Part shown: positions 1 through 39,498 of the stretch, piece after piece
Layout: each line of letters opens with the position of its first letter
Position numbering within the stretch: the first letter of the stretch is position 1
Source: a virus
Virus record (IMG/VR): IMGVR_UViG_3300035034_001051
Length of the DNA: 39,498 nucleotides
Direction: 5' to 3' (one strand)
Program-made: the position numbers and the translations under genes
The notes under the pieces: generated by a model
Seen by the model: only the letters and a program-made list of their open reading frames with translations
Database searches by the model: none
What the model was told of the DNA's origin: nothing

Positions 1-127
1 CCACAAGCCGAACTGAAGGATACCTTAAAGATTTCACTTAAGTGAATACCTGTACATTGGTTTGTATACCAGTAGTCGTAGGCCTTAAGCTTTCTTTCAG
101 AGTACCTTTCTTTGTTAGTCTTTATAG
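1..127. repeat. Exact 127-bp duplicate of 39372..39498, a contig-end overlap from a circular or permuted assembly
   Basis: Base-by-base comparison: ccacaagccgaactgaagg...gttagtctttatag occurs at both window ends. The copy falls inside the DNA polymerase locus, not in the terminase-to-early-gene intergenic region where a T7-like terminal repeat belongs. Confidence 0.95.
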
Positions 128-238
128 CTTTCTTTTGGAAAAGGCTTCGCTCAGGGTTGGCATATGATTTCATCACTTAGCTTCCTCTGAATTCACCTGA
201 TTATTCGATAGACCTTGCGATCTAAAGGCACAATGTTT
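1..238 (-). ncRNA. Group I intron in the DNA polymerase gene, 5' portion (intron nt 1-238; continues at 39371 across the contig junction)
   Basis: Exon 1 ends ...GCU UGG GUG CAU at nt 239, so the last exon base is U. Intron nt 4-11, CAUUGUGC (plus 228..235), can pair with the exon-1 end GCAU (P1, with a U.G at the splice site) and with the exon-2 start GAUG (P10). A GNRA-capped hairpin UAGAUC-GCAA-GGUCUA lies at intron nt 15-30. The exon-1 frame hits a TGA 22 codons into the intron (173..175). Confidence 0.8.
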
Positions 239-1987
239 ATGCACCCAAGCCATTTGACAGACTTGGTCGATTGTATATCCAGCTTCACGAATACGTTGGT
301 TCGCTATAACCATCCACTTCTTTGCTATGATACCACCAGCTGACTGAAGGAGGTAGTTCAATGCCTTATGTTGTGTGTCACAGTATATGACCCGGCCATC
401 AAGTCCCTTAAATTTACCATGGTCTTTGCATTTCTTTTGGATAGCGTCCTTAAGGGCACCCAGACCAATCTTTTGTTCAAAGGTTTGAGTCATACTCTTA
501 GCCTTACTCAGGGTATCAACCTTGAGGATTGCCTTAAGCTTCTCTGAGCCTGCCCCATAGACCATGGCGTAAAGGTATGTCTTTGCTATGTCATCTCGGG
601 CGTCAACGTGAGTCGGGTTCTTCTTATCTCGCTTAGTTCCCTCAGGGAATATACCAAGTAAGAGTACATTTTGCCAGTGAATATCACCTGCAAGTACCGC
701 ATTGATATACTTACCCCCATCATAAGGAGCCAAGTAGTGTGCTAGTAGCCTTACTTCGATACCAGACAAGTCCGAGCCTATTTGGTAGTAACCTTTAGGA
801 GGTCCAAAGAGCTTACGACATCTCTTACCTAAATCTTTCTTTAAGTCAGAGCCCCGAGAGGCAGGAATCTGCCCAAGGTTAGGGGAGCTATGAGCCCCTC
901 TATGGGTCGTGGTACCTATATGAAAACACCTATGACGTATTGTGTCATCGTCTTCCACAAGTTTCAGCCAGGCATTTTTACCTGTGTCTACATACCCAAG
1001 GACCTTGTTAACTACTTTGAGGTCCATGATGTAGGGCATGCAGTCATACTCAAGGTGATCTATATGCTCTGCCTTAGTTGAGGGTTGTCCAGATTCCGTA
1101 AGTACTTCAGGTTTCCAGCCATACTTCTCAGTAAGTAGAGCGATTATGTCAGCATCAGTCCCAGTAAATGTCCGGAGCTTTACTTCACAATAATTGGCAC
1201 CAGGTTCTGTACCATGTTTTATATCACCTGCCTTAAGGTTACTGCGTCTCTTAGGTTCCTTGATAATCATCTGTCCTTTCTTGTAGACTGGAACATACTT
1301 ATCAGGGGACCAAGCCTTAAGCACCTGGAGGCACTCAGTCTTCTTGATCTCACAGAATTCTTTAAGGTCCTCAGCTTCGGAGCGGTTAAATGTAAATCCG
1401 AAGTCATGCTGTTCAACATCAAGTATATATGCGGACGCATGCTCAAGGACACGAGGTCCCTCTGGAACATCCTTGAGGTACTTGTTCATAAGTCTTTCAT
1501 AGAGACGAACAGTCACATCTACGTCCAACTCACAATATTCTTGCATCTCAGGAGTCCATAGTTCCCAGGCGTTATCTTGCTTACCAAACTCTCCCTTGTT
1601 CAGTCCAACTCTGTAACCAAATGCCTCCAGCTTATGGGAGCCTATAAGTTGTCCAGGAATCTTACCTTGCTTAAAGAGTCCAAAGTCAATACGCTTCAGG
1701 AGGGAGTCGTTCCCGTCACCAAAGGCCAGCTTTGATAATATCAGGGTGTCAGTAACCTTACCCTTAAAGGTAAAGCCATAGAGTTTCTTCAAGACCCTTA
1801 GGTCATACCCTTGGATATTATGACCAATGAGTTCTCGTGCCTGCTTAAGTGTATCTAAAGCCTCTTCAAGTTCCCATGGTTTCCACGAGTACTTAGAGCC
1901 TGTGTCCAGGTCTTGTGCACATATGCAGTGTAGCTGAGTCACTTCCTTTAGGAGTCCATTGGATTCCAAGTCAAACACGAGTCTCAT
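239..1987 (-). CDS. T7-like DNA polymerase (family A), exon 1 (583 codons)
   Basis: N-terminal 3'-5' exonuclease motif MRLVFDLESNGLL. PolA palm and finger motifs (DLSGIEVRLLAHY, KTYLYAMVYGAG). Ends ...CQMAWVH exactly where T7 DNAP has ...YMAWVHDEIQ. The track ORF 173..1987 runs a further 22 codons into the intron. Confidence 0.9.
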
Positions 1988-1999
1988 TATTATTCTCCG

Positions 2000-2257
2000 T
2001 TAGTAAGTTACCAGCACCTCATCTGATTTGATAAGGGCCTTCTTTTTGTTGGTAGTCTCAAGACGTACACCAGCATACTTGCCAATGCCTACCTTAAGGC
2101 CAACCTTAAGACCTCCGGACACGTTAGGACCAAGGGCCTCAATGGTTGCTTCAAGGATCATGGAGTCCTTTGATGCTCCGGTTACAATGATACCACCAGT
2201 GGTCTTCTCTTCAACCTCTTGAAGTTCTACAAGAATATATTCGTTATAGGGTTTCAT
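2000..2257 (-). CDS. GroES/Cpn10-like co-chaperonin (85 aa)
   Basis: PYNEYILVELQEVEEKTTGGIIVTGAS aligns with E. coli GroES [27 protein letters not shown]. The C-terminus LKVGLKVGIGKYAGV...SDEVLVTY resembles VKVGDIVIF..YGV...ESDILAIV. ATGA-type overlap with the upstream gene. Confidence 0.75.
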   Translation of the reverse strand: MKPYNEYILVELQEVEEKTTGGIIVTGASKDSMILEATIEALGPNVSGGLKVGLKVGIGKYAGVRLETTNKKKALIKSDEVLVTY

Positions 2258-2496: not shown

Positions 2497-2799
2497 TTAG
2501 ATATTAAAGTTGATTTTAGTTGTTAGGGTTTTCTCTGAGACGTATCGTTGTAAGCGTTTAACTGCCCGCCTTGCTAGCTCACAAGTATACTCGTAGCTGC
2601 TATACATCTCCAGGTCATGGGAATGGATACGATCAGATGAATTGAATTGAAGGCCTCCAGCCGTCCATACCTTGATAGTTACACAAACTTCGTTACACTG
2701 GACGTCAATGTCTAGGTGTACTTTCTCAAATCCAATGAGGTCTCGGCAGGCTTCTTTGTAGAAGTGCTCGATTTCTTTGATCCTCGGGTTGATAAACAT
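2497..2799 (-). CDS. Hypothetical protein (100 aa)
   Basis: ATG preceded by GGAGAAG about 5 nt upstream. Its start lies 88 nt inside the upstream ORF. Confidence 0.6.
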   Translation of the reverse strand: MFINPRIKEIEHFYKEACRDLIGFEKVHLDIDVQCNEVCVTIKVWTAGGLQFNSSDRIHSHDLEMYSSYEYTCELARRAVKRLQRYVSEKTLTTKINFNI

Positions 2800-3089
2800 A
2801 TTACTTCTCCATTCTCAATTGTGTATCGTTTATTATTAAAGTTTACTACTGCCTTGTTGCTGCCCATAAGTTCCAAAGCGTCCTTTATTGCTTCAAGCTT
2901 CTTGTCTTCCTCAATGGAGCCTATGAAATTTTTAAGGTTCATTAGTTCCTTGTAGCTTAAAGTTAACAAAGAGTCCTTGATGTTTACTTTTGGGGTGGGG
3001 GTCATTACCCGTGGAGCTTCCTCACCTTGAGGTAACTCTTGGGGTGGTCCCTGCTGTACATCTCGTACACTCATTCGGGGTATATTCAT
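2712..3089 (-). CDS. Hypothetical protein (125 aa)
   Basis: ATG start immediately after the primase-helicase stop. The last ~29 codons overlap the next gene out of frame and are low-complexity. Confidence 0.55.
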   Translation of the reverse strand: MNIPRMSVRDVQQGPPQELPQGEEAPRVMTPTPKVNIKDSLLTLSYKELMNLKNFIGSIEEDKKLEAIKDALELMGSNKAVVNFNNKRYTIENGEVICLSTRGSKKSSTSTKKPAETSLDLRKYT

Positions 3090-3091
3090 AT

Positions 3092-4792
3092 TTAAAAGTC
3101 CTGGTTATTGACTGGTGTAAAGCCATGGTCCGGCTTAGCCTTAGCTTTCTTTGTAGGTTCCGAGCTTTTATCTGGGAATTTCGCAATTGGATCTAGCCTT
3201 CCGGTGTCAAAGTTAAACCTTAGTGCATCAGTACACTGGTTGTTATACTTGCTGTATGACCTGCACTTTAGCTGCCAAAGGTAAGTTATGTATCTCTCGT
3301 CTTCATCAGTTTCATCACGGCTTGCAACAAATATATTATGTGAGTACTGACCTAGAGCTGAGCTACCCTTCAGATGGTTCTTCTTAGGTACAAGACCTTC
3401 AGACCAGTCTTTGTCATTCTCTGCTTTACGTAGATGAACAACTGTGAGGATGCCTACGTTTGTTCTATTGGCTAGCTTGTACAAATGCTTCATAAACTCT
3501 TCAATAGCCCTTGCTTCATTATCTGTCTCCATACCTGCAATAGCTATAGAGATGTGATCAAGAATAATGAAGTCACACTTCTTTGATTTTGCAAGACTCT
3601 CAAGTTTAGATAAAAGCTTTCCATGCTCCCACTCAACACTGTTCTTTGCAATGACCAGGTTATTACCAAAGAGTTTAGACGCCTCCTGGTAACCCTCCTC
3701 TGTAATGAGGTCAGGGTTCTCCTCAATCTCAACCAAAGGTATCTTATTGTGCAAGGCATAGTATCCTTTCCATGAAGTCTGGTGCTGCTCTTCCATGTAA
3801 ACATTACCAACTCGTAACCCGGTTACGTGAGCTAGATGGTAGCCTATTTCTCTCGTTAGAGTTGACTTACCAATGCCTGTCCCTGCTGCAAATAGAGTTA
3901 CTTCACCCTTACGAAAGCCTCGCATAGCATCTTGCATACCCGGAAAAGGTAGAGGGTGACCCACTTTGGGTTCCTCTTTGAGACTCTCCAAGGTAAAGTC
4001 CCCAAAGTCCATCAGGTCATTATCAACATCAGCTGTAACTGCATTCCAATACGCTGTCTTAATGTCTGCTTCACGCTTATCTACCAGTAGAGCGTTAGCA
4101 TCTTTGTAACCATCAGGATACTGTGCAACTAGGCACTTACCTGGGAGTAGATCAGCAAAAGCTTTGGTAGCTTCGCGTCCTTCCTCATCAGCGTCCATGA
4201 ACAAGACAATTTCATCAAAGTTCTTGAGCCACTCAAGGTTTTCCTCAATCACCTTTGAGGCCTTGGCGTACCCTGCCCCTGAGGGTAAAGACACTACAGG
4301 CCAGTTCGTCCCGATAACCTGAGCCACTGACATGCAATCAATCTCACCTTCAGTGATAGCCAGGCGCTTACCCTTACGGTGTAGATGTTGTCCGAAAAAT
4401 CTACGAGTGCTTAGTCCTGTCCATACAAAAGACTTGTTCTTAAAGCGTAGCTTCTGTCCTAGAAGTTGCCCATGATCGTCCTTAAATGGAGCTACCTGTA
4501 CTGTTGAACCCATGAAGGTGGCATATCCATATCCATAGTGCCTAGCCACTTTCTCCCTTATCCCTCTTACTTTCAAATCTTTGTATGTGATCTGCTCAAT
4601 GAAAGGGATAACCTTTTTAGGGGTAGGTTCCTGAGGCTCGTAACCCTCTAGATTATACGTAAAGTAATCACAAGCATAGCACTTAGCGTAGCCGGTCTCA
4701 TGCACTACTAAATTATCAGCAGCTGTATCATTGCCGTCTTTGTAACACTCTGGGCACTGCGTGCGATCTAAAATATTACCGTGCTTGCTCAT
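3092..4792 (-). CDS. Bifunctional DNA primase/helicase (T7 gp4-like, 566 aa)
   Basis: Zinc motif CPEC...CYAC, TOPRIM-like ITEGEIDCMS, Walker A AAGTGIGKST, and an acidic C-terminus ending in DF as in T7 gp4. Confidence 0.92.
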   Translation of the reverse strand: MSKHGNILDRTQCPECYKDGNDTAADNLVVHETGYAKCYACDYFTYNLEGYEPQEPTPKKVIPFIEQITYKDLKVRGIREKVARHYGYGYATFMGSTVQVAPFKDDHGQLLGQKLRFKNKSFVWTGLSTRRFFGQHLHRKGKRLAITEGEIDCMSVAQVIGTNWPVVSLPSGAGYAKASKVIEENLEWLKNFDEIVLFMDADEEGREATKAFADLLPGKCLVAQYPDGYKDANALLVDKREADIKTAYWNAVTADVDNDLMDFGDFTLESLKEEPKVGHPLPFPGMQDAMRGFRKGEVTLFAAGTGIGKSTLTREIGYHLAHVTGLRVGNVYMEEQHQTSWKGYYALHNKIPLVEIEENPDLITEEGYQEASKLFGNNLVIAKNSVEWEHGKLLSKLESLAKSKKCDFIILDHISIAIAGMETDNEARAIEEFMKHLYKLANRTNVGILTVVHLRKAENDKDWSEGLVPKKNHLKGSSALGQYSHNIFVASRDETDEDERYITYLWQLKCRSYSKYNNQCTDALRFNFDTGRLDPIAKFPDKSSEPTKKAKAKPDHGFTPVNNQDF

Positions 4793-36821: not shown

Positions 36822-37007
36822 CTATTTTCTCTCTTTGTTGGATTGTCCATACCAGCCTTCCCCGGAGCCTTTAAAGCTGGGTCCTGACTTGAATATCTTT
36901 GAGACTTCAGAGTCACACTGAGTACACTGAGGCTTGTCTTGGTTAATCCCATGGAACTCTGAGAACTCATGGGAACATTGGGTACATCTATAATCATATG
37001 TAGGCAT
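36822..37007 (-). CDS. FmdB-type CxxC zinc-ribbon protein (61 aa)
   Basis: MPTYDYRCTQCSHEFSEF....PQCTQCDS matches the MP.YEYRC..CGH.FE....C..C signature of the FmdB zinc-ribbon family. GGAGG lies upstream of the ATG at 37007. Confidence 0.7.
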   Translation of the reverse strand: MPTYDYRCTQCSHEFSEFHGINQDKPQCTQCDSEVSKIFKSGPSFKGSGEGWYGQSNKERK

Positions 37008-37022
37008 TATACAGACCTCCAC

Positions 37023-38249: not shown

Positions 38250-38422
38250 TGTTGAGTGTCCTCTGGAAGGCCTGAGATACAGACATAAAGTGTTTGACTA
38301 TAGGTAGCCTCTGTAATCCCTGTTATCTCTCCATCATAGTTAAAACCATCAGGAGCCGTTAGGGATACTTCAGAATCCTCAGGGTATTCCTGTAGCTTTT
38401 CTATAAGTTCTTTAACTTTCAT
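38246..38422 (-). CDS. Small hypothetical protein (58 aa), not in the ORF track
   Basis: Hand translation: MKVKELIEKLQEYPEDSEVSLTAPDGFNYDGEITGITEATYSQTLYVCISGLPEDTQQ. TAATG overlap upstream and ATGA overlap downstream. Confidence 0.55.
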   Translation of the reverse strand: MKVKELIEKLQEYPEDSEVSLTAPDGFNYDGEITGITEATYSQTLYVCISGLPEDTQQ

Positions 38423-39039
38423 TATATTCCCCTCTGCAATTCCTTAAGGTATGCCACTTCTTCAGCAAGAGCTTTTGCAGCTTCTGATAATTGGCGGAGT
38501 AGGTTTGAAGATATTGAGTAGTTACCTTTCTCAGCGTATGTGTAAGCCTTTCCCATATAGTCAAGAAGTTCACTGCGCTTCCCTGCTATAGAGCTTCTCA
38601 TAGAAACTTCAAGCATTTCCTTCTGATGACGAAGCTCCATACGTGCTGTAACTTCAGGGCTAGGTGTGAACTTTACAGTAACCTCCTCACCGTAGTACCC
38701 ATTAGAAGTACCAAGCCACCGAAGCCATAAGGACCCTCTAGTAGTCTGTAGGTTATATAATGTCCATGTGAAAGACTCTCCACAGTATACACCATTTGAG
38801 TCGTTACCCTCACCCTCGTTAGTAGTGACTTCAGCGCTGAAGATTACAGAGTTCTCAAGGTCCTCAATGTCCCCCTCAAAGTCTACAAGAACTACTTCCT
38901 CGCAACAGTCCTGTTCGTGGTAGAACTCAACCGTACCTCCACAAGAAGTCTTGAAGGTTAACTTCTCGCTCTCCTTATGCAAGCCTTCAATCTTTACTAT
39001 ACGCAAGCCTATAAGTTCTTTTAGTGTTGTAGTTTCCAT
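38422..39039 (-). CDS. Hypothetical protein (205 aa) with an N-terminal QDCCE-motif domain
   Basis: ATG start directly downstream of DNA polymerase exon 2. Contains YHEQDCCEEVVLVDFEGDIEDL. No function recognised. Confidence 0.6.
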   Translation of the reverse strand: METTTLKELIGLRIVKIEGLHKESEKLTFKTSCGGTVEFYHEQDCCEEVVLVDFEGDIEDLENSVIFSAEVTTNEGEGNDSNGVYCGESFTWTLYNLQTTRGSLWLRWLGTSNGYYGEEVTVKFTPSPEVTARMELRHQKEMLEVSMRSSIAGKRSELLDYMGKAYTYAEKGNYSISSNLLRQLSEAAKALAEEVAYLKELQRGI

Positions 39040-39061: not shown

Positions 39062-39217
39062 TTAGTGTGTGTCTGCCCAGGTAGATCCATAAGCACTTTC
39101 AGAAGCAATAGGTATCCTCATACCATAAGCCTCTCCAGCCTCAATAGAAGCTGCCTCAACGATAGCCTTGATAGGTTCAGGGTCTACGTCATTACGTACT
39201 GCAAGTTGGACTTCATC
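39062..39217 (-). CDS. T7-like DNA polymerase, exon 2 (51 codons plus stop)
   Basis: DEVQLAVRND...GMRIPIASESAYGSTWADTH parallels the T7 DNAP C-terminus HDEIQVGCRTEE...LLDTEGKMGPNWAICH. Joining it to exon 1 restores motif C as WVH-DE. Confidence 0.85.
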   Translation of the reverse strand, partial: DEVQLAVRNDVDPEPIKAIVEAASIEAGEAYGMRIPIASESAYGSTWADTH

Positions 39218-39371
39218 CTTACTGTTAACTTCCTGTGTCTCACCTTTAAATGAGTGTCGGACTATATCATCAACCACTAGGGTTGTCAGGTACTTCCACA
39301 ACTCTTCCATGAGTCATGTACTCGCTCTCGCGATAGTCTCTGCACGTTCCTTTTTCCATTCTCTTATCCAC
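39218..39371 (-). ncRNA. Group I intron in the DNA polymerase gene, 3' portion (intron nt 239-392) containing the catalytic-core R and S elements
   Basis: The minus strand reads GUGCAGAGACUA (39334..39345; classic R element GUUCAGAGACUA) and UGAUAUAGUCC (39259..39269; classic S element AAGAUAUAGUCC). GACUA/UAGUC form P7 with a bulged A. Hairpins CGC-GAGA-GCG and CAACC-CUAGU-GGUUG lie between them. The last intron nt is G (39218). Total length is 392 nt, which is not a multiple of 3. Confidence 0.8.
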
Positions 39372-39498
39372 CCACAAGCCGAACTGAAGGATACCTTAAA
39401 GATTTCACTTAAGTGAATACCTGTACATTGGTTTGTATACCAGTAGTCGTAGGCCTTAAGCTTTCTTTCAGAGTACCTTTCTTTGTTAGTCTTTATAG
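39372..39498. repeat. Second copy of the 127-bp contig-end overlap (= 1..127)
   Basis: Identical to 1..127. Confidence 0.95.

What the first reader, a model, noticed from the sequence alone, without database searches (positions are those of the whole stretch)
39218..39371. Classic group I catalytic-core elements R and S, with IA-style extra hairpins
The minus strand contains GUGCAGAGACUA (39334..39345) and UGAUAUAGUCC (39259..39269). These nearly match the textbook R (GUUCAGAGACUA) and S (AAGAUAUAGUCC) consensus elements. They form P7 (GACUA/UAGUC plus C-G with a bulged A), the guanosine-binding helix. Between R and S lie two small hairpins (CGC-GAGA-GCG and CAUG-ACU-CAUG), in the place P7.1/P7.2 occupy in subgroup IA phage introns. 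A P8-like hairpin (CAACC-CUAGU-GGUUG) ends 6 nt before S. A P9-like hairpin and the terminal G follow S by 41 nt. This evidence is independent of the protein-level argument.
Basis: partly seen in the sequence, partly recalled or inferred. Interest (0 to 1): 0.7.

Follow-up and report, generated by a model that had tools for sequence, protein, structure and literature searches.

The report
Self-splicing intron in phage polymerase gene

Summary
The window is a circular T7-like phage assembly with a 127-nt terminal overlap, so the intron is split across the window ends: 238..1, then 39371..39218, minus strand, 392 nt.

- **Splice product.** Removing the intron joins ...QMAWVH to DEVQLAV..., restoring motif C of a family A DNA polymerase. 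The product is collinear with intron-less relatives.
- **Rfam score.** The identical 392 nt, contiguous in a JGI contig, score 66.6 bits (E=4e-16) against RF00028, above the curated cut-off of 50.
- **Structure.** Twenty-two homologous introns at the same codon boundary show covariation for P1, P2, P3, P4, P6a, P7.1, P8, P9 and P10. P7.1-GUA-P7.2 marks subgroup IA2.
- **Known family.** This is the published PhiI/W31 type of T7-like polymerase intron.
- **Extra finding.** The intron ORF (76 aa) is an in-frame 231-nt deletion derivative of a 153-aa HNH endonuclease that is intact in a near-identical genome. The deleted allele occurs in two other assemblies. This parallels the T4 nrdB/I-TevIII case.

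It is a new member of a known kind, of modest interest.

The parts
239..1987 (-). DNA polymerase exon 1. It ends with codons ...ATG GCT TGG GTG CAT (M A W V H); the last base, T239, is the U of the U.G pair at the 5' splice site.
   Evidence: ORF list, sequence. The spliced translation is in frame. Pfam DNA_pol_A covers residues 281-632 in one stretch through the junction.
1..238 (-). Intron positions p1-p238 (window coordinate = 239 - p). Contains P1 guide, P10 guide, P2, P3 5' strand, P4, P5/P5a, P6, P6a 5' strand and most of the P6a loop/ORF. Window 1..127 is the same DNA as 39372..39498.
   Evidence: (exact 127-nt overlap). Rfam hit 248..1 (-) 27.6 bits, E=1.2e-4, cut off at the 3' end.
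39218..39371 (-). Intron positions p239-p392 (window coordinate = 39610 - p); this is the finding's stretch. Contains the end of the P6a loop, P6a', P6', R/P7, P7.1, P7.2, P3', P8, S/P7', P9, the 3' tail and the terminal G (39218).
   Evidence: The identical sequence is contiguous in L125 3936..4327 and scores 66.6 bits.
39372..39498 (-). Second copy of the 127-nt assembly overlap (= window 1..127; intron p112-p238). Not a biological repeat.
   Evidence: Exact terminal overlap of 127 nt. L125 carries the intron without any such repeat.
228..242 (-). P1 and the P10 guide. Exon GCAU (242..239) pairs with guide GUGC (p8-11, 231..228), with U.G at the splice site. CAUU (p4-7, 235..232) pairs with the first four exon-2 bases GAUG (39217..39214) to form P10.
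   Evidence: P1 positions -1 to -4 pair in 22/22 homologues, with a G-C to C-G swap at -4. P10 is 4 bp in 21/22, with a compensatory CGUU/GACG in MQM1.
210..223 (-). P2 hairpin AGAUC-GCAA-GGUCU (GNRA loop), p16-29.
   Evidence: (Rfam alignment). MQM1, L043, L004 and L012 have different stems with GUAA loops at the same place.
195..200 (-). P3 5' strand UCAGGU (p39-44). Pairs with ACCUGA at 39291..39286.
   Evidence: P3 is 100% paired in 22 sequences, and 5 of 6 pairs show changes on both sides.
151..190 (-). P4 (UCAGAG p49-54 with CCCUGA p83-88; one A.C mismatch) enclosing P5/P5a (p58-79). The ORF's Shine-Dalgarno GAGGAAG (p52-58, 187..181) and start codon AUG (p66-68, 173..171) lie inside P4 and P5a.
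   Evidence: P4 is 99% paired, 4 of 6 pairs covary. Also. The P5/P5a comparison with MQM1 was made by eye from the sequences.
137..150 (-). P6 (GC, p89-90) and P6a 5' strand (CCUUUUCC, p95-102). Partners are at 39345..39344 and 39357..39349.
   Evidence: P6 89% and P6a 79% paired, all 5 counted P6a pairs covary.
39334..39345 (-). Element R GUGCAGAGACUA (p265-276). Contains P6' (GU), J6/7 and the P7 5' strand G270, [A271 bulge], GACUA.
39322..39333 (-). P7.1 UCGC-GAGA-GCGA (p277-288), followed by the GUA linker (p289-291, 39321..39319).
   Evidence: Centroid fold; RNAalifold and pair counts. GUA linker as the IA2 mark: PMC3428280.
39297..39318 (-). P7.2: CAUGACUC (p292-299) / GAGUUGUG (p306-313), loop AUGGAA. 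The ORF stop codon UGA (p294-296, 39316..39314) lies in its 5' strand.
Evidence: Present in the MFE and centroid folds.
39286..39291 (-). P3 3' strand ACCUGA (p319-324), preceded by the conserved GAAG (p314-317).
   Evidence: family frame GAAG-NN-P3' seen.
39271..39285 (-). P8 hairpin CAACC-CUAGU-GGUUG (p325-339). The outer two pairs may instead belong to J3/8 and J8/7.
   Evidence: RNAalifold P8 shows many changes on both sides.
39259..39269 (-). Element S UGAUAUAGUCC (p341-351). Contains J8/7 and the P7 3' strand UAGUC-C.
39239..39254 (-). P9 hairpin CUCAUU-UAAA-GGUGAG (p356-371).
   Evidence: RNAalifold P9 shows changes on both sides in 5 of 6 pairs.
39218..39238 (-). 3' tail ACACAGGAAGUUAACAGUAAG, ending in the terminal G (39218). 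The last 11 nt correspond to the family's (A)AUACAGNAAG.
   Evidence: family 3' ends all ...AG|GAUGA; only this site keeps the reading frame.
39062..39217 (-). DNA polymerase exon 2: DEVQLAVRND...GSTWADTH*. The first codon is the motif C aspartate.
1..173 (-). Intron ORF, first part (p66-238). The 76-aa protein is MKSYANPERSLFQKK|AIKTNKERY... The deletion junction AAAG|CTATAAAG lies between window 128 and 127.
   Evidence: The exact 76-aa protein is present in two other assemblies.
39314..39371 (-). Intron ORF, second part (p239-296), encoding ...CGWIREWKKERAETIARAST*. It overlaps P6a', R/P7, P7.1 and the start of P7.2.

Best explanation
[quoted passage not shown] It is 392 nt long and interrupts the family A DNA polymerase gene of a T7-like phage between the His and Asp codons of motif C (VH|DE). 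That is the position of the published PhiI/W31 introns of T7-like coliphages.

Mechanism (inferred from the fold; established for this class of ribozyme):
1. The 5' exon end GCAU pairs with the internal guide GUGC to form P1, with U.G at the cleavage site.
2. An external guanosine bound at the G-C pair next to the bulged A in P7 (R/S elements) attacks the 5' splice site.
3. The terminal G (39218) then takes the same pocket.
4. P10 (CAUU with exon-2 GAUG) aligns the 3' exon, and the exons are ligated.
5. The ligated message encodes ...AWVHDEVQ... Only spliced RNA encodes a polymerase with the catalytic aspartate; unspliced RNA terminates 21 codons into the intron.

The intron carries an ORF that begins in P5a, fills the P6a loop and ends in P7.2. 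In a near-identical genome it encodes a 153-aa HNH (HNH_3) homing endonuclease. In this window an in-frame 231-nt deletion has removed residues 16-92, the whole HNH domain, leaving a 76-aa protein with only the C-terminal helical, probably DNA-binding, part. The intron here is therefore predicted to splice but to be unable to home by itself.
For: **Covariance model**
- The two halves in the window score 27.6 and 22.6 bits.
- The identical 392 nt, contiguous in L125, score 66.6 bits, E=4.1e-16, over the full model, above the cut-off of 50.
- The full-ORF allele in L124 scores 34.4 bits.
- Homologues score 61 bits (MQM1) and 36/35.7 bits (PC127, CHX131).

**Exons**
- The spliced CDS is in frame, 634 aa.
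- Pfam DNA_pol_A matches in one stretch to the profile end.
- The junction peptide aligns in one piece over at least 80% of its length in 1750 phage records.
- The spliced product is gap-free against intron-less relatives of 52-63% identity. L127 DNA reads ...tgggttcat|GATGAG without interruption.

**Covariation in 22 introns at the same codon boundary**
- P3, P4, P6, P6a, P7 and P7.1 are 92.9% paired against 31-39% when partners are slid.
- 18 pairs have changes on both sides, and 0/500 shuffles reach any measure.
- P1 and P10 also covary.
- RNAalifold finds P7, P7.1, P8 and P9 unaided.
- P7.2 shows compensatory changes against MQM1.

**Literature**
- PhiI/W31 introns are IA2, with the endonuclease gene in P6a, at polymerase 'site 881' (PMC3428280).

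**ORF**
- The alignment shows a clean internal deletion.
- HNH_3 gives E=1.9e-13 in the 153-aa form and no hit in the 76-aa form.
- The exact 76-aa product lies inside two independent contigs.
- No HNH paralogue exists elsewhere in the window.
Against: - No splicing experiment or transcript data exist for this phage, so catalysis is inferred.
- In the window itself nothing reaches the Rfam gathering score, because the intron is cut by the assembly ends.
- The minimum free energy of the 131-nt 3' domain is not lower than that of shuffles (z = -0.40).
- P1 has only 4 contiguous pairs before a U-C mismatch, and P4 has one A.C mismatch.
- P7 gives no covariation evidence, because the comparison set was collected with a pattern that fixes R and S.
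- The core alignment was built after cutting out the ORF loop by rule, and its structure line was derived from the window sequence.
- The DNA-binding role of the 76-aa remnant rests on sub-threshold HTH hits, a single-sequence model (mean pLDDT 73.6), and fold matches that are not significant (best E=0.34).
Confidence: 0.93

Rival explanations
1. The polymerase is a genuinely split gene: two separate polypeptides with a free-standing small gene between them, and no RNA splicing.
For: Gene callers annotate it this way: 604-aa, 76-aa and 82-aa genes in L125, and 318+/153/82 aa in L124. An ATG at 39310 opens an 82-aa ORF that contains exon 2.
Against: - The break falls between adjacent catalytic-motif codons (VH|DE).
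- The 82-aa ORF starts inside P7.2 and would add 31 unrelated residues.
- The intervening 392 nt score 66.6 bits against the group I model and show covariation for every helix tested.
- Homologous introns at this site are reported to self-splice (PhiI/W31, cited in PMC3428280).
Confidence: 0.02
2. The core is a decayed intron relic that no longer splices, so this genome (or the deletion allele) is a defective or non-viable variant.
For: - The endonuclease gene is already degenerate.
- P4 carries an A.C mismatch and P1 is short.
- All copies come from metagenome assemblies, so viability is unknown.
Against: - All 62 modelled pairs other than that one mismatch are standard pairs.
- The deletion lies wholly in the P6a loop and leaves every core strand intact.
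- The deleted allele scores higher on the covariance model than the full-ORF allele (66.6 against 34.4 bits).
- The same 392 nt are found unchanged in genomes that differ elsewhere by 0.6-3.5%, as expected for a replicating lineage whose only polymerase gene depends on splicing.
Confidence: 0.04
3. The 231-nt deletion is an assembly artefact and the real genome carries the full 153-aa endonuclease gene.
For: - The window's terminal overlap begins exactly at the deletion breakpoint (window 127/128). This suggests a branch in the assembly graph.
- A near-identical genome has the full gene (L124).
Against: - The junction lies inside the window, at 128/127, flanked by unique sequence on both sides. 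It therefore needs reads that span it.
- The exact 76-aa ORF is internal to two other contigs from other samples and assemblers: JGI 3300039191 (6.5 kb) and ENA ERZ27315555 (597 bp).
- The window differs from L124 by 7 substitutions in 6.1 kb, so it is not the same assembly.
Confidence: 0.03
4. The R and S matches are chance resemblance inside ordinary coding DNA.
For: The stretch is covered by ORFs on the minus strand, and the fold energy is unremarkable.
Against: - The pattern occurs in 0 of 100 shuffles.
- The covariance model gives E=4e-16.
- Homology to annotated introns.
- Stop codons in the polymerase frame 21 codons after the 5' splice site.
Confidence: 0.005

Closest known systems
PhiI / W31 group I intron of T7-like coliphage DNA polymerase genes (endonuclease I-TslI; Bonocora & Shub 2004, as described in PMC3428280). 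Represented here by Salmonella phage PC127 (L003) and phage CHX131 (L002).
   Same: - Same host gene and same codon boundary: exon 1 ends ...TGG GTG CAT, exon 2 starts GAT GA.
- Same subgroup IA2 layout with P7.1-GUA-P7.2.
- Same P10 guide CAUU, and the same S-flank GAUAUAGUCCGACAC.
- An HNH gene placed in P6a whose 3' end is read through P6a', R and P7.1.
- The surviving part of the ORF product is 59-65% identical.
   Different: - The host phage is distant: its polymerase is at most ~46% identical to any deposited phage over the junction region.
- This intron has a P2 hairpin, which the PhiI type lacks.
- It has a short 22-nt P7.2 and an 11-nt longer 3' tail.
- Its ORF starts earlier, in P5a, and here lacks the HNH domain.
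Second intron of the DNA polymerase gene of Aeromonas phage vB_AsaP_MQM1 (OQ628262; 'putative intron' in PMC10410586)
   Same: - Closest DNA relative found: 73.7% identity over 191 nt of core plus exon 2.
- Same site, with a P2 carrying a GNRA loop, a P7.2 of the same 22-nt frame and the same extended 3' tail (GGAAG-yUAAC-rG-wAAG).
- HNH ORF ending ...WKKERAETI.
   Different: - MQM1 is a 63-kb phage with two introns in the gene.
- Its ORF is intact (142 aa, HNH_3 E=2.7e-17).
- Its exon sequence at P1 differs (CCAU/GUGG instead of GCAU/GUGC).
Phage T4 nrdB intron with the defunct endonuclease I-TevIII, versus the intact version in phage RB3 (Eddy & Gold 1991; PMC2790892, PMC1865063)
   Same: A phage group I intron whose HNH homing-endonuclease gene carries an internal deletion that inactivates it, while a close relative keeps the intact gene. 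The intron still splices. Such an intron can persist or be mobilised in trans.
   Different: - Different host gene, intron subgroup and endonuclease lineage (I-TevIII binds DNA through zinc fingers).
- Here inactivity and splicing are inferred, not tested.
- No neighbouring free-standing endonuclease was found in the window.
Pf-WMP3 cyanophage DNA polymerase intron with I-PfoP3I (PMC3428280)
   Same: An IA2 intron in a T7-like phage polymerase gene, with P7.1/P7.2 linked by GUA. Its HNH ORF starts in the P6a region and runs through P7, P7.1 and P7.2.
   Different: [quoted passage not shown]

Membership tests
Group I intron (Rfam RF00028) | Covariance-model score at or above the curated gathering score (50 bits) over the full model | tested here: met
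   The identical 392-nt sequence in L125 scores 66.6 bits, E=4.1e-16, model 1-253. In the window itself it appears only as two truncated hits of 27.6 and 22.6 bits, because the assembly ends cut it.
Group I intron (Rfam RF00028) | P1 formed by the 5' exon end and an internal guide, with U.G at the cleavage site | tested here: met
   GCAU/GUGC with U239.G. Positions -1 to -4 pair in 22/22 homologues, with a G-C to C-G swap at -4.
Group I intron (Rfam RF00028) | Conserved core P3-P8 and P4-P6 with P7 (R/S pairing, bulged A, G-C guanosine site) | tested here: met
   92.9% of cells are paired and 18 pairs have changes on both sides. RNAalifold recovers P7, P7.1, P8 and P9. P7 itself is invariant, so it is uninformative for covariation.
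Group I intron (Rfam RF00028) | Terminal G at the 3' splice site, and P10 aligning the 3' exon | tested here: met
   G39218 precedes GAUGAA. P10 is CAUU/GAUG, 4 bp in 21/22 homologues with one compensatory change.
Group I intron (Rfam RF00028) | Guanosine-dependent self-splicing | not testable with these tools
   Needs an in vitro transcript with GTP, or RT-PCR from infected cells.
Subgroup IA2 | Extra helices P7.1 and P7.2 between P7 and P3', joined by G-U-A (criterion as stated in PMC3428280) | tested here: met
   UCGC-GAGA-GCGA, then GUA, then CAUGACUC-AUGGAA-GAGUUGUG, then GAAGU and P3' (for the criterion).
PhiI/W31-type intron of T7-like DNA polymerase genes | Insertion between the His and Asp codons of motif C ('site 881') | tested here: met
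   AWVH|DEVQ, the same boundary as L002, L003 and 17 further IMG/VR loci. 'Site 881' comes from PMC3428280. That 881 is the Klenow His is my own knowledge.
PhiI/W31-type intron of T7-like DNA polymerase genes | HNH endonuclease gene (I-TslI / T3 gp5.3-like) inserted in P6a | tested here: inconclusive
   The position is met: the ORF occupies the P6a loop. The product aligns with the gp5.3-like proteins of L002 and L003 at 59-65% identity. In this window, however, the HNH domain is deleted; it is intact in L124.
HNH homing endonuclease (Pfam PF13392 HNH_3) | Presence of the HNH_3 catalytic domain in the intron ORF product | tested here: not met
   The 76-aa product has no HNH_3 hit. The 153-aa L124 product gives E=1.9e-13 over residues 52-92, all within the deleted residues 16-92. 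The window ORF is a remnant, not a member.

The most novel reading that the evidence does not exclude
The 76-aa nuclease-less ORF may not be decaying junk but a retained, expressed DNA-binding protein. It could occupy the intron-insertion or homing site, or the flanking polymerase DNA, so as to blunt cleavage by related endonucleases of co-infecting phages, or it could regulate the intron or the polymerase.

On this reading the deleted allele has spread. It is seen in three assemblies with an identical intron, against one assembly with the intact gene, and it appears to coexist with another allele in the window's own sample.
Probability: 0.1. Interest if true: 0.55.

Novelty: new member of a known kind. 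Interest (0 to 1): 0.3.

Why it matters
- **Annotation.** The polymerase of this phage lineage is one 634-aa protein made from a spliced message, not a truncated 604-aa protein plus two small 'hypothetical' genes, as automatic callers report it.
- **Host range of the intron family.** The PhiI/W31 type of polymerase intron, known from enterobacterial T7-like phages, also occurs in a distant, uncultured T7-like lineage. The intron family has evidently moved between very different phages while keeping one target site.
- **Stages of endonuclease loss.** At this one insertion site, public data hold intact (about 600-640 nt), half-deleted (392 nt) and ORF-free (225-230 nt) versions. The first two occur in the same phage lineage; the ORF-free ones are in other phages. 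This offers a natural series for the gain and loss of homing endonucleases in introns, in a system simple enough to test.
- **Limits.** None of this changes what is known about how group I introns work.

Tried and rejected
- **Rfam at gathering threshold on the window:** nothing. The reason is the intron being cut by the contig ends, not absence.
- **Megablast of the region against deposited phages:** no match. Only blastn and tblastn sensitivity found relatives.
- **Thermodynamic significance of the 3' domain:** z = -0.40, not informative.
rejected on energy (-1.2 against -7.3 kcal/mol) and on comparison (1 of 4 pairs kept in MQM1).
- **First pair count:** I wrote P3 and P7 with one bracket type, so they were nested wrongly. 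I repeated the count with separate brackets.
- **An upstream 3' splice site after ACACAGGAAG:** considered because it resembles the family's ACAGNAAG end. Rejected because it would add 11 nt, shift the frame and bring a UAA into frame (read from the sequence), and because MQM1 shares the long tail.
- **Exact searches for either allele junction in IMG/VR, and for the shared flank in JGI metagenome contigs:** no hits.
- **The search for related loci with the polymerase C-terminus in IMG/VR:** no relatives.
- **Look-ups of P0003 and of the window's own 604-aa exon-1 ORF product:** not on record.
- **PDB sequence search with the endonuclease alignment:** nothing meaningful.
- **Structure of the 76-aa protein:** a single-sequence model, helical, mean pLDDT 73.6. 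Foldseek gave no significant match (best E=0.34), although small helix-turn-helix domains dominate the list.
- **Intein:** rejected. There are stop codons in the polymerase frame 21 codons into the insert.
- **PMC529087 (Bonocora & Shub 2004):** not held. Its content is cited only through PMC3428280.
Full report
**1. What is at the coordinates**

The joint pattern AGAGACTA-N(40-70)-GATATAGTCC occurs once in the window and in none of 100 dinucleotide-preserving shuffles. A G at 39218 lies 41 nt after S and directly precedes GATGAA.

**2. The window is circular and the feature is larger than flagged**

Window 1..127 is identical to 39372..39498. This is the usual signature of a circular assembly, and the true length is 39,371 bp. 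All long ORFs lie on the minus strand. Pfam identifies a single-subunit RNA polymerase, a T7-type primase-helicase, a T7-type terminase, a portal protein, an SSB, a 5'-3' exonuclease and an amidase, so this is a T7-like phage.

- The ORF 1987..173 (minus) is a family A DNA polymerase that reads ...QMAWVH and then runs 21 unrelated codons to a stop.
- The stretch downstream of 39218 reads DEVQLAVRND...GSTWADTH*.
- Joining 239 to 39217 removes 392 nt (238..1, then 39371..39218) and gives an in-frame 634-aa polymerase.
- Its Pfam DNA_pol_A match runs in one stretch through the junction to the end of the profile.

The finding's coordinates, 39218..39371, are exactly the part of the intron that follows the assembly overlap.

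**3. Structure-aware tests**

| Sequence | Rfam RF00028 result |
|---|---|
| Window, gathering threshold | nothing |
| Window 39498..39238 (3' half) | 22.6 bits, cut off at its 5' end |
| Window 248..1 (5' half) | 27.6 bits, cut off at its 3' end |
| L125 3926..4307 | 66.6 bits, E=4.1e-16, model 1-253, cut-off 50 |
| L124 (near-identical genome, longer intron) | 34.4 bits |
| MQM1 second intron | 61 bits |
| PC127 / CHX131 | 36 / 35.7 bits |

The window alone gives nothing at gathering threshold because each end holds only part of the intron. An exact look-up of the intron ORF product led to a JGI contig (L125) that contains the identical 392 nt uninterrupted at 3936..4327. That copy gives the 66.6-bit score.

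**4. Homologues and covariation**

- A pattern scan of IMG/VR and blastn against deposited phages yielded 22 distinct introns at the same codon boundary, exon 1 ...CAT, exon 2 GATGA.
- I cut out the ORF loop and aligned the cores (A1).
- P3, P4, P6, P6a, P7 and P7.1 are 92.9% paired, against 31-39% when the 3' partners are slid by 1-3 columns.
- 18 pairs show changes on both sides, and no shuffle out of 500 reaches any of the five measures.
- P3 is 100% paired with 5 of 6 pairs covarying; P4 is 99% paired with 4 of 6.
- P7 is invariant, but the search pattern fixed it, so it carries no weight.
- RNAalifold on 26 3' domains predicted P7, P7.1, P8 and P9 without guidance, and 13 of 19 pairs had changes on both sides.
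- P1 (U.G at the splice site, G-C/C-G swap at -4) and P10 (CAUU/GAUG, with CGUU/GACG in MQM1) also hold across the set.
- P2 is a GNRA-capped hairpin with different stems in the five members that have it.

**5. Correction to P7.2**

The segment between the GUA linker and the conserved GAAG is 22 nt, CAUGACUCAUGGAAGAGUUGUG. It also appears in the MFE and centroid folds. MQM1 has a 22-nt segment in the same frame, in which four of the eight pairs differ on both sides and still pair. P7.1-GUA-P7.2 is the stated mark of subgroup IA2 (PMC3428280).

**6. Known family**

PMC3428280 describes the PhiI and W31 introns of T7-like coliphages as follows:

- They are IA2 introns.
- They carry the HNH endonuclease I-TslI inserted in P6a.
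- They lie at polymerase 'site 881'.

PC127 and CHX131 show the same arrangement, and their 131-aa ORF is annotated Gp5-3 in CHX131. MQM1's authors proposed 'putative introns' from the HNH ORF alone (PMC10410586). The present intron shares the insertion site, the guide sequences and the core with these. It is closest to MQM1, at 73.7% identity over 191 nt.

**7. Intron-less relatives**

- The nearest polymerases in the large protein collection, apart from a 97%-identical 604-aa exon-1 product, are 634-639-aa proteins at 52-63% identity. They cover 100% of the spliced query and read ...QMAWVHDELQLAV... without a gap.
- In L127 the DNA is ...tgggttcat|GATGAG, uninterrupted, in the same gene order: primase-helicase, Cpn10, polymerase, exonuclease.
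- No relative translates the 392 nt as polymerase.

**8. The intron ORF**

- A 76-codon ORF starts at AUG p66-68 inside P5a, with GAGGAAG in P4/J4-5 as its likely ribosome-binding site. It fills the P6a loop, runs through P6a', R/P7 and P7.1, and stops in P7.2.
- L124, from ENA ERZ27315384, is the same phage (7 substitutions in 6.1 kb). It has 231 extra nt (L124 1005..1235) that make the ORF 153 aa, with an HNH_3 domain at residues 52-92.
- The window protein lacks residues 16-92 exactly. The breakpoints abut two imperfect copies of TATAAAGAC.
- What survives is a helical C-terminal part. The evidence is sub-threshold HTH hits, a single-sequence model with pLDDT 80-91 over residues 25-65, and fold matches that are not significant but are mostly small HTH domains.
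- The exact 76-aa product lies inside two other contigs, JGI 3300039191 and ENA ERZ27315555, so the deletion is real.
- The window's overlap begins precisely at the breakpoint. For a de Bruijn assembly this suggests a branch, meaning two alleles in that sample. This is an inference only.
- No other copy of the HNH core exists in the window.
- The precedent is the T4 nrdB intron, whose HNH endonuclease I-TevIII has an inactivating internal deletion while RB3 keeps the intact gene. The T4 intron is mobilised in trans by a neighbouring endonuclease (PMC2790892; PMC1865063).

**9. How it most likely works**

Shown:
- the fold
- the splice-site geometry
- the in-frame ligation product
- the homology to introns reported to self-splice
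- the loss of the nuclease domain

Inferred:
- guanosine-initiated two-step transesterification with P7 as the G site
- dependence of polymerase activity on splicing, since the motif C aspartate is the first exon-2 codon
- masking of the ORF's ribosome-binding site by P4/P5a
- inability of this allele to home on its own

**10. Verdict**

This is a new member of a known kind. The half-deleted endonuclease gene, seen next to its intact form in the same phage lineage, is a tidy natural example but has a textbook precedent. Interest is about 0.3.

Noticed in passing
window 1..127 and 39372..39498: Exact 127-nt direct repeat at the two window ends. It is an assembly overlap of a circular 39,371-bp genome, not a biological terminal repeat. 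It starts exactly at the endonuclease deletion breakpoint, which hints that two intron alleles coexisted in the reads.
   Followed up: partly
window 2000..2257 (-): An 85-aa Cpn10/GroES-like co-chaperonin gene sits directly upstream of the DNA polymerase gene (Pfam PF00166, E=4e-11, above the cut-off). It is conserved at the same place in the intron-less relative L127 and in L125. I believe this is an uncommon gene for a T7-like phage.
   Followed up: partly
L065, L004, L012, L091 (IMG/VR contigs): ORF-free introns of 225-230 nt at the same polymerase codon boundary (exon ...CAT | GATGA...). Together with the 392-nt and ~600-640-nt forms they make a length series at one insertion site.
   Followed up: partly
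L001 1903..2154 (Aeromonas phage MQM1): MQM1's polymerase gene has a second, ORF-free group I intron upstream of the homologous one. It scores 75.1 bits on RF00028.
   Followed up: no
L076 2310..2390 and 2758..2838: One IMG/VR contig has two R...S core matches about 450 nt apart, possibly two introns close together in one gene.
   Followed up: no
window 134..114 (-) (intron p105-125): GCUAUAAAGACUA at the deletion junction imitates the R element. The covariance model used it as R in the truncated 5' hit. It is part of the imperfect TATAAAGAC repeat that flanks the deletion.
   Followed up: partly
window 39238..39218 (-): The 3' tail holds two similar octamers, ACAGGAAG and ACAGUAAG. Only the second gives an in-frame product. 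MQM1 shares this longer tail. Use of the first as an alternative 3' splice site would truncate the polymerase.
   Followed up: partly
window 38422..39039 (-) versus L125 4506..4760: The 205-aa DUF7448 gene just downstream of polymerase exon 2 is replaced by an 84-aa gene in the otherwise 96-99% identical L125. This is local mosaicism next to the intron.
   Followed up: no
window 36822..37022 (-): A 66-aa FmdB-type zinc-ribbon protein (PF09723, E=7e-13) among the small early/middle genes.
   Followed up: no
window 39314..39371 (-) and homologues: The most conserved stretch of the endonuclease proteins (CGWIREWK...ERAETI) is encoded by the P6a', J6/7, R and P7.1 RNA core. Its conservation may therefore reflect RNA constraints rather than protein constraints.
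   Followed up: no
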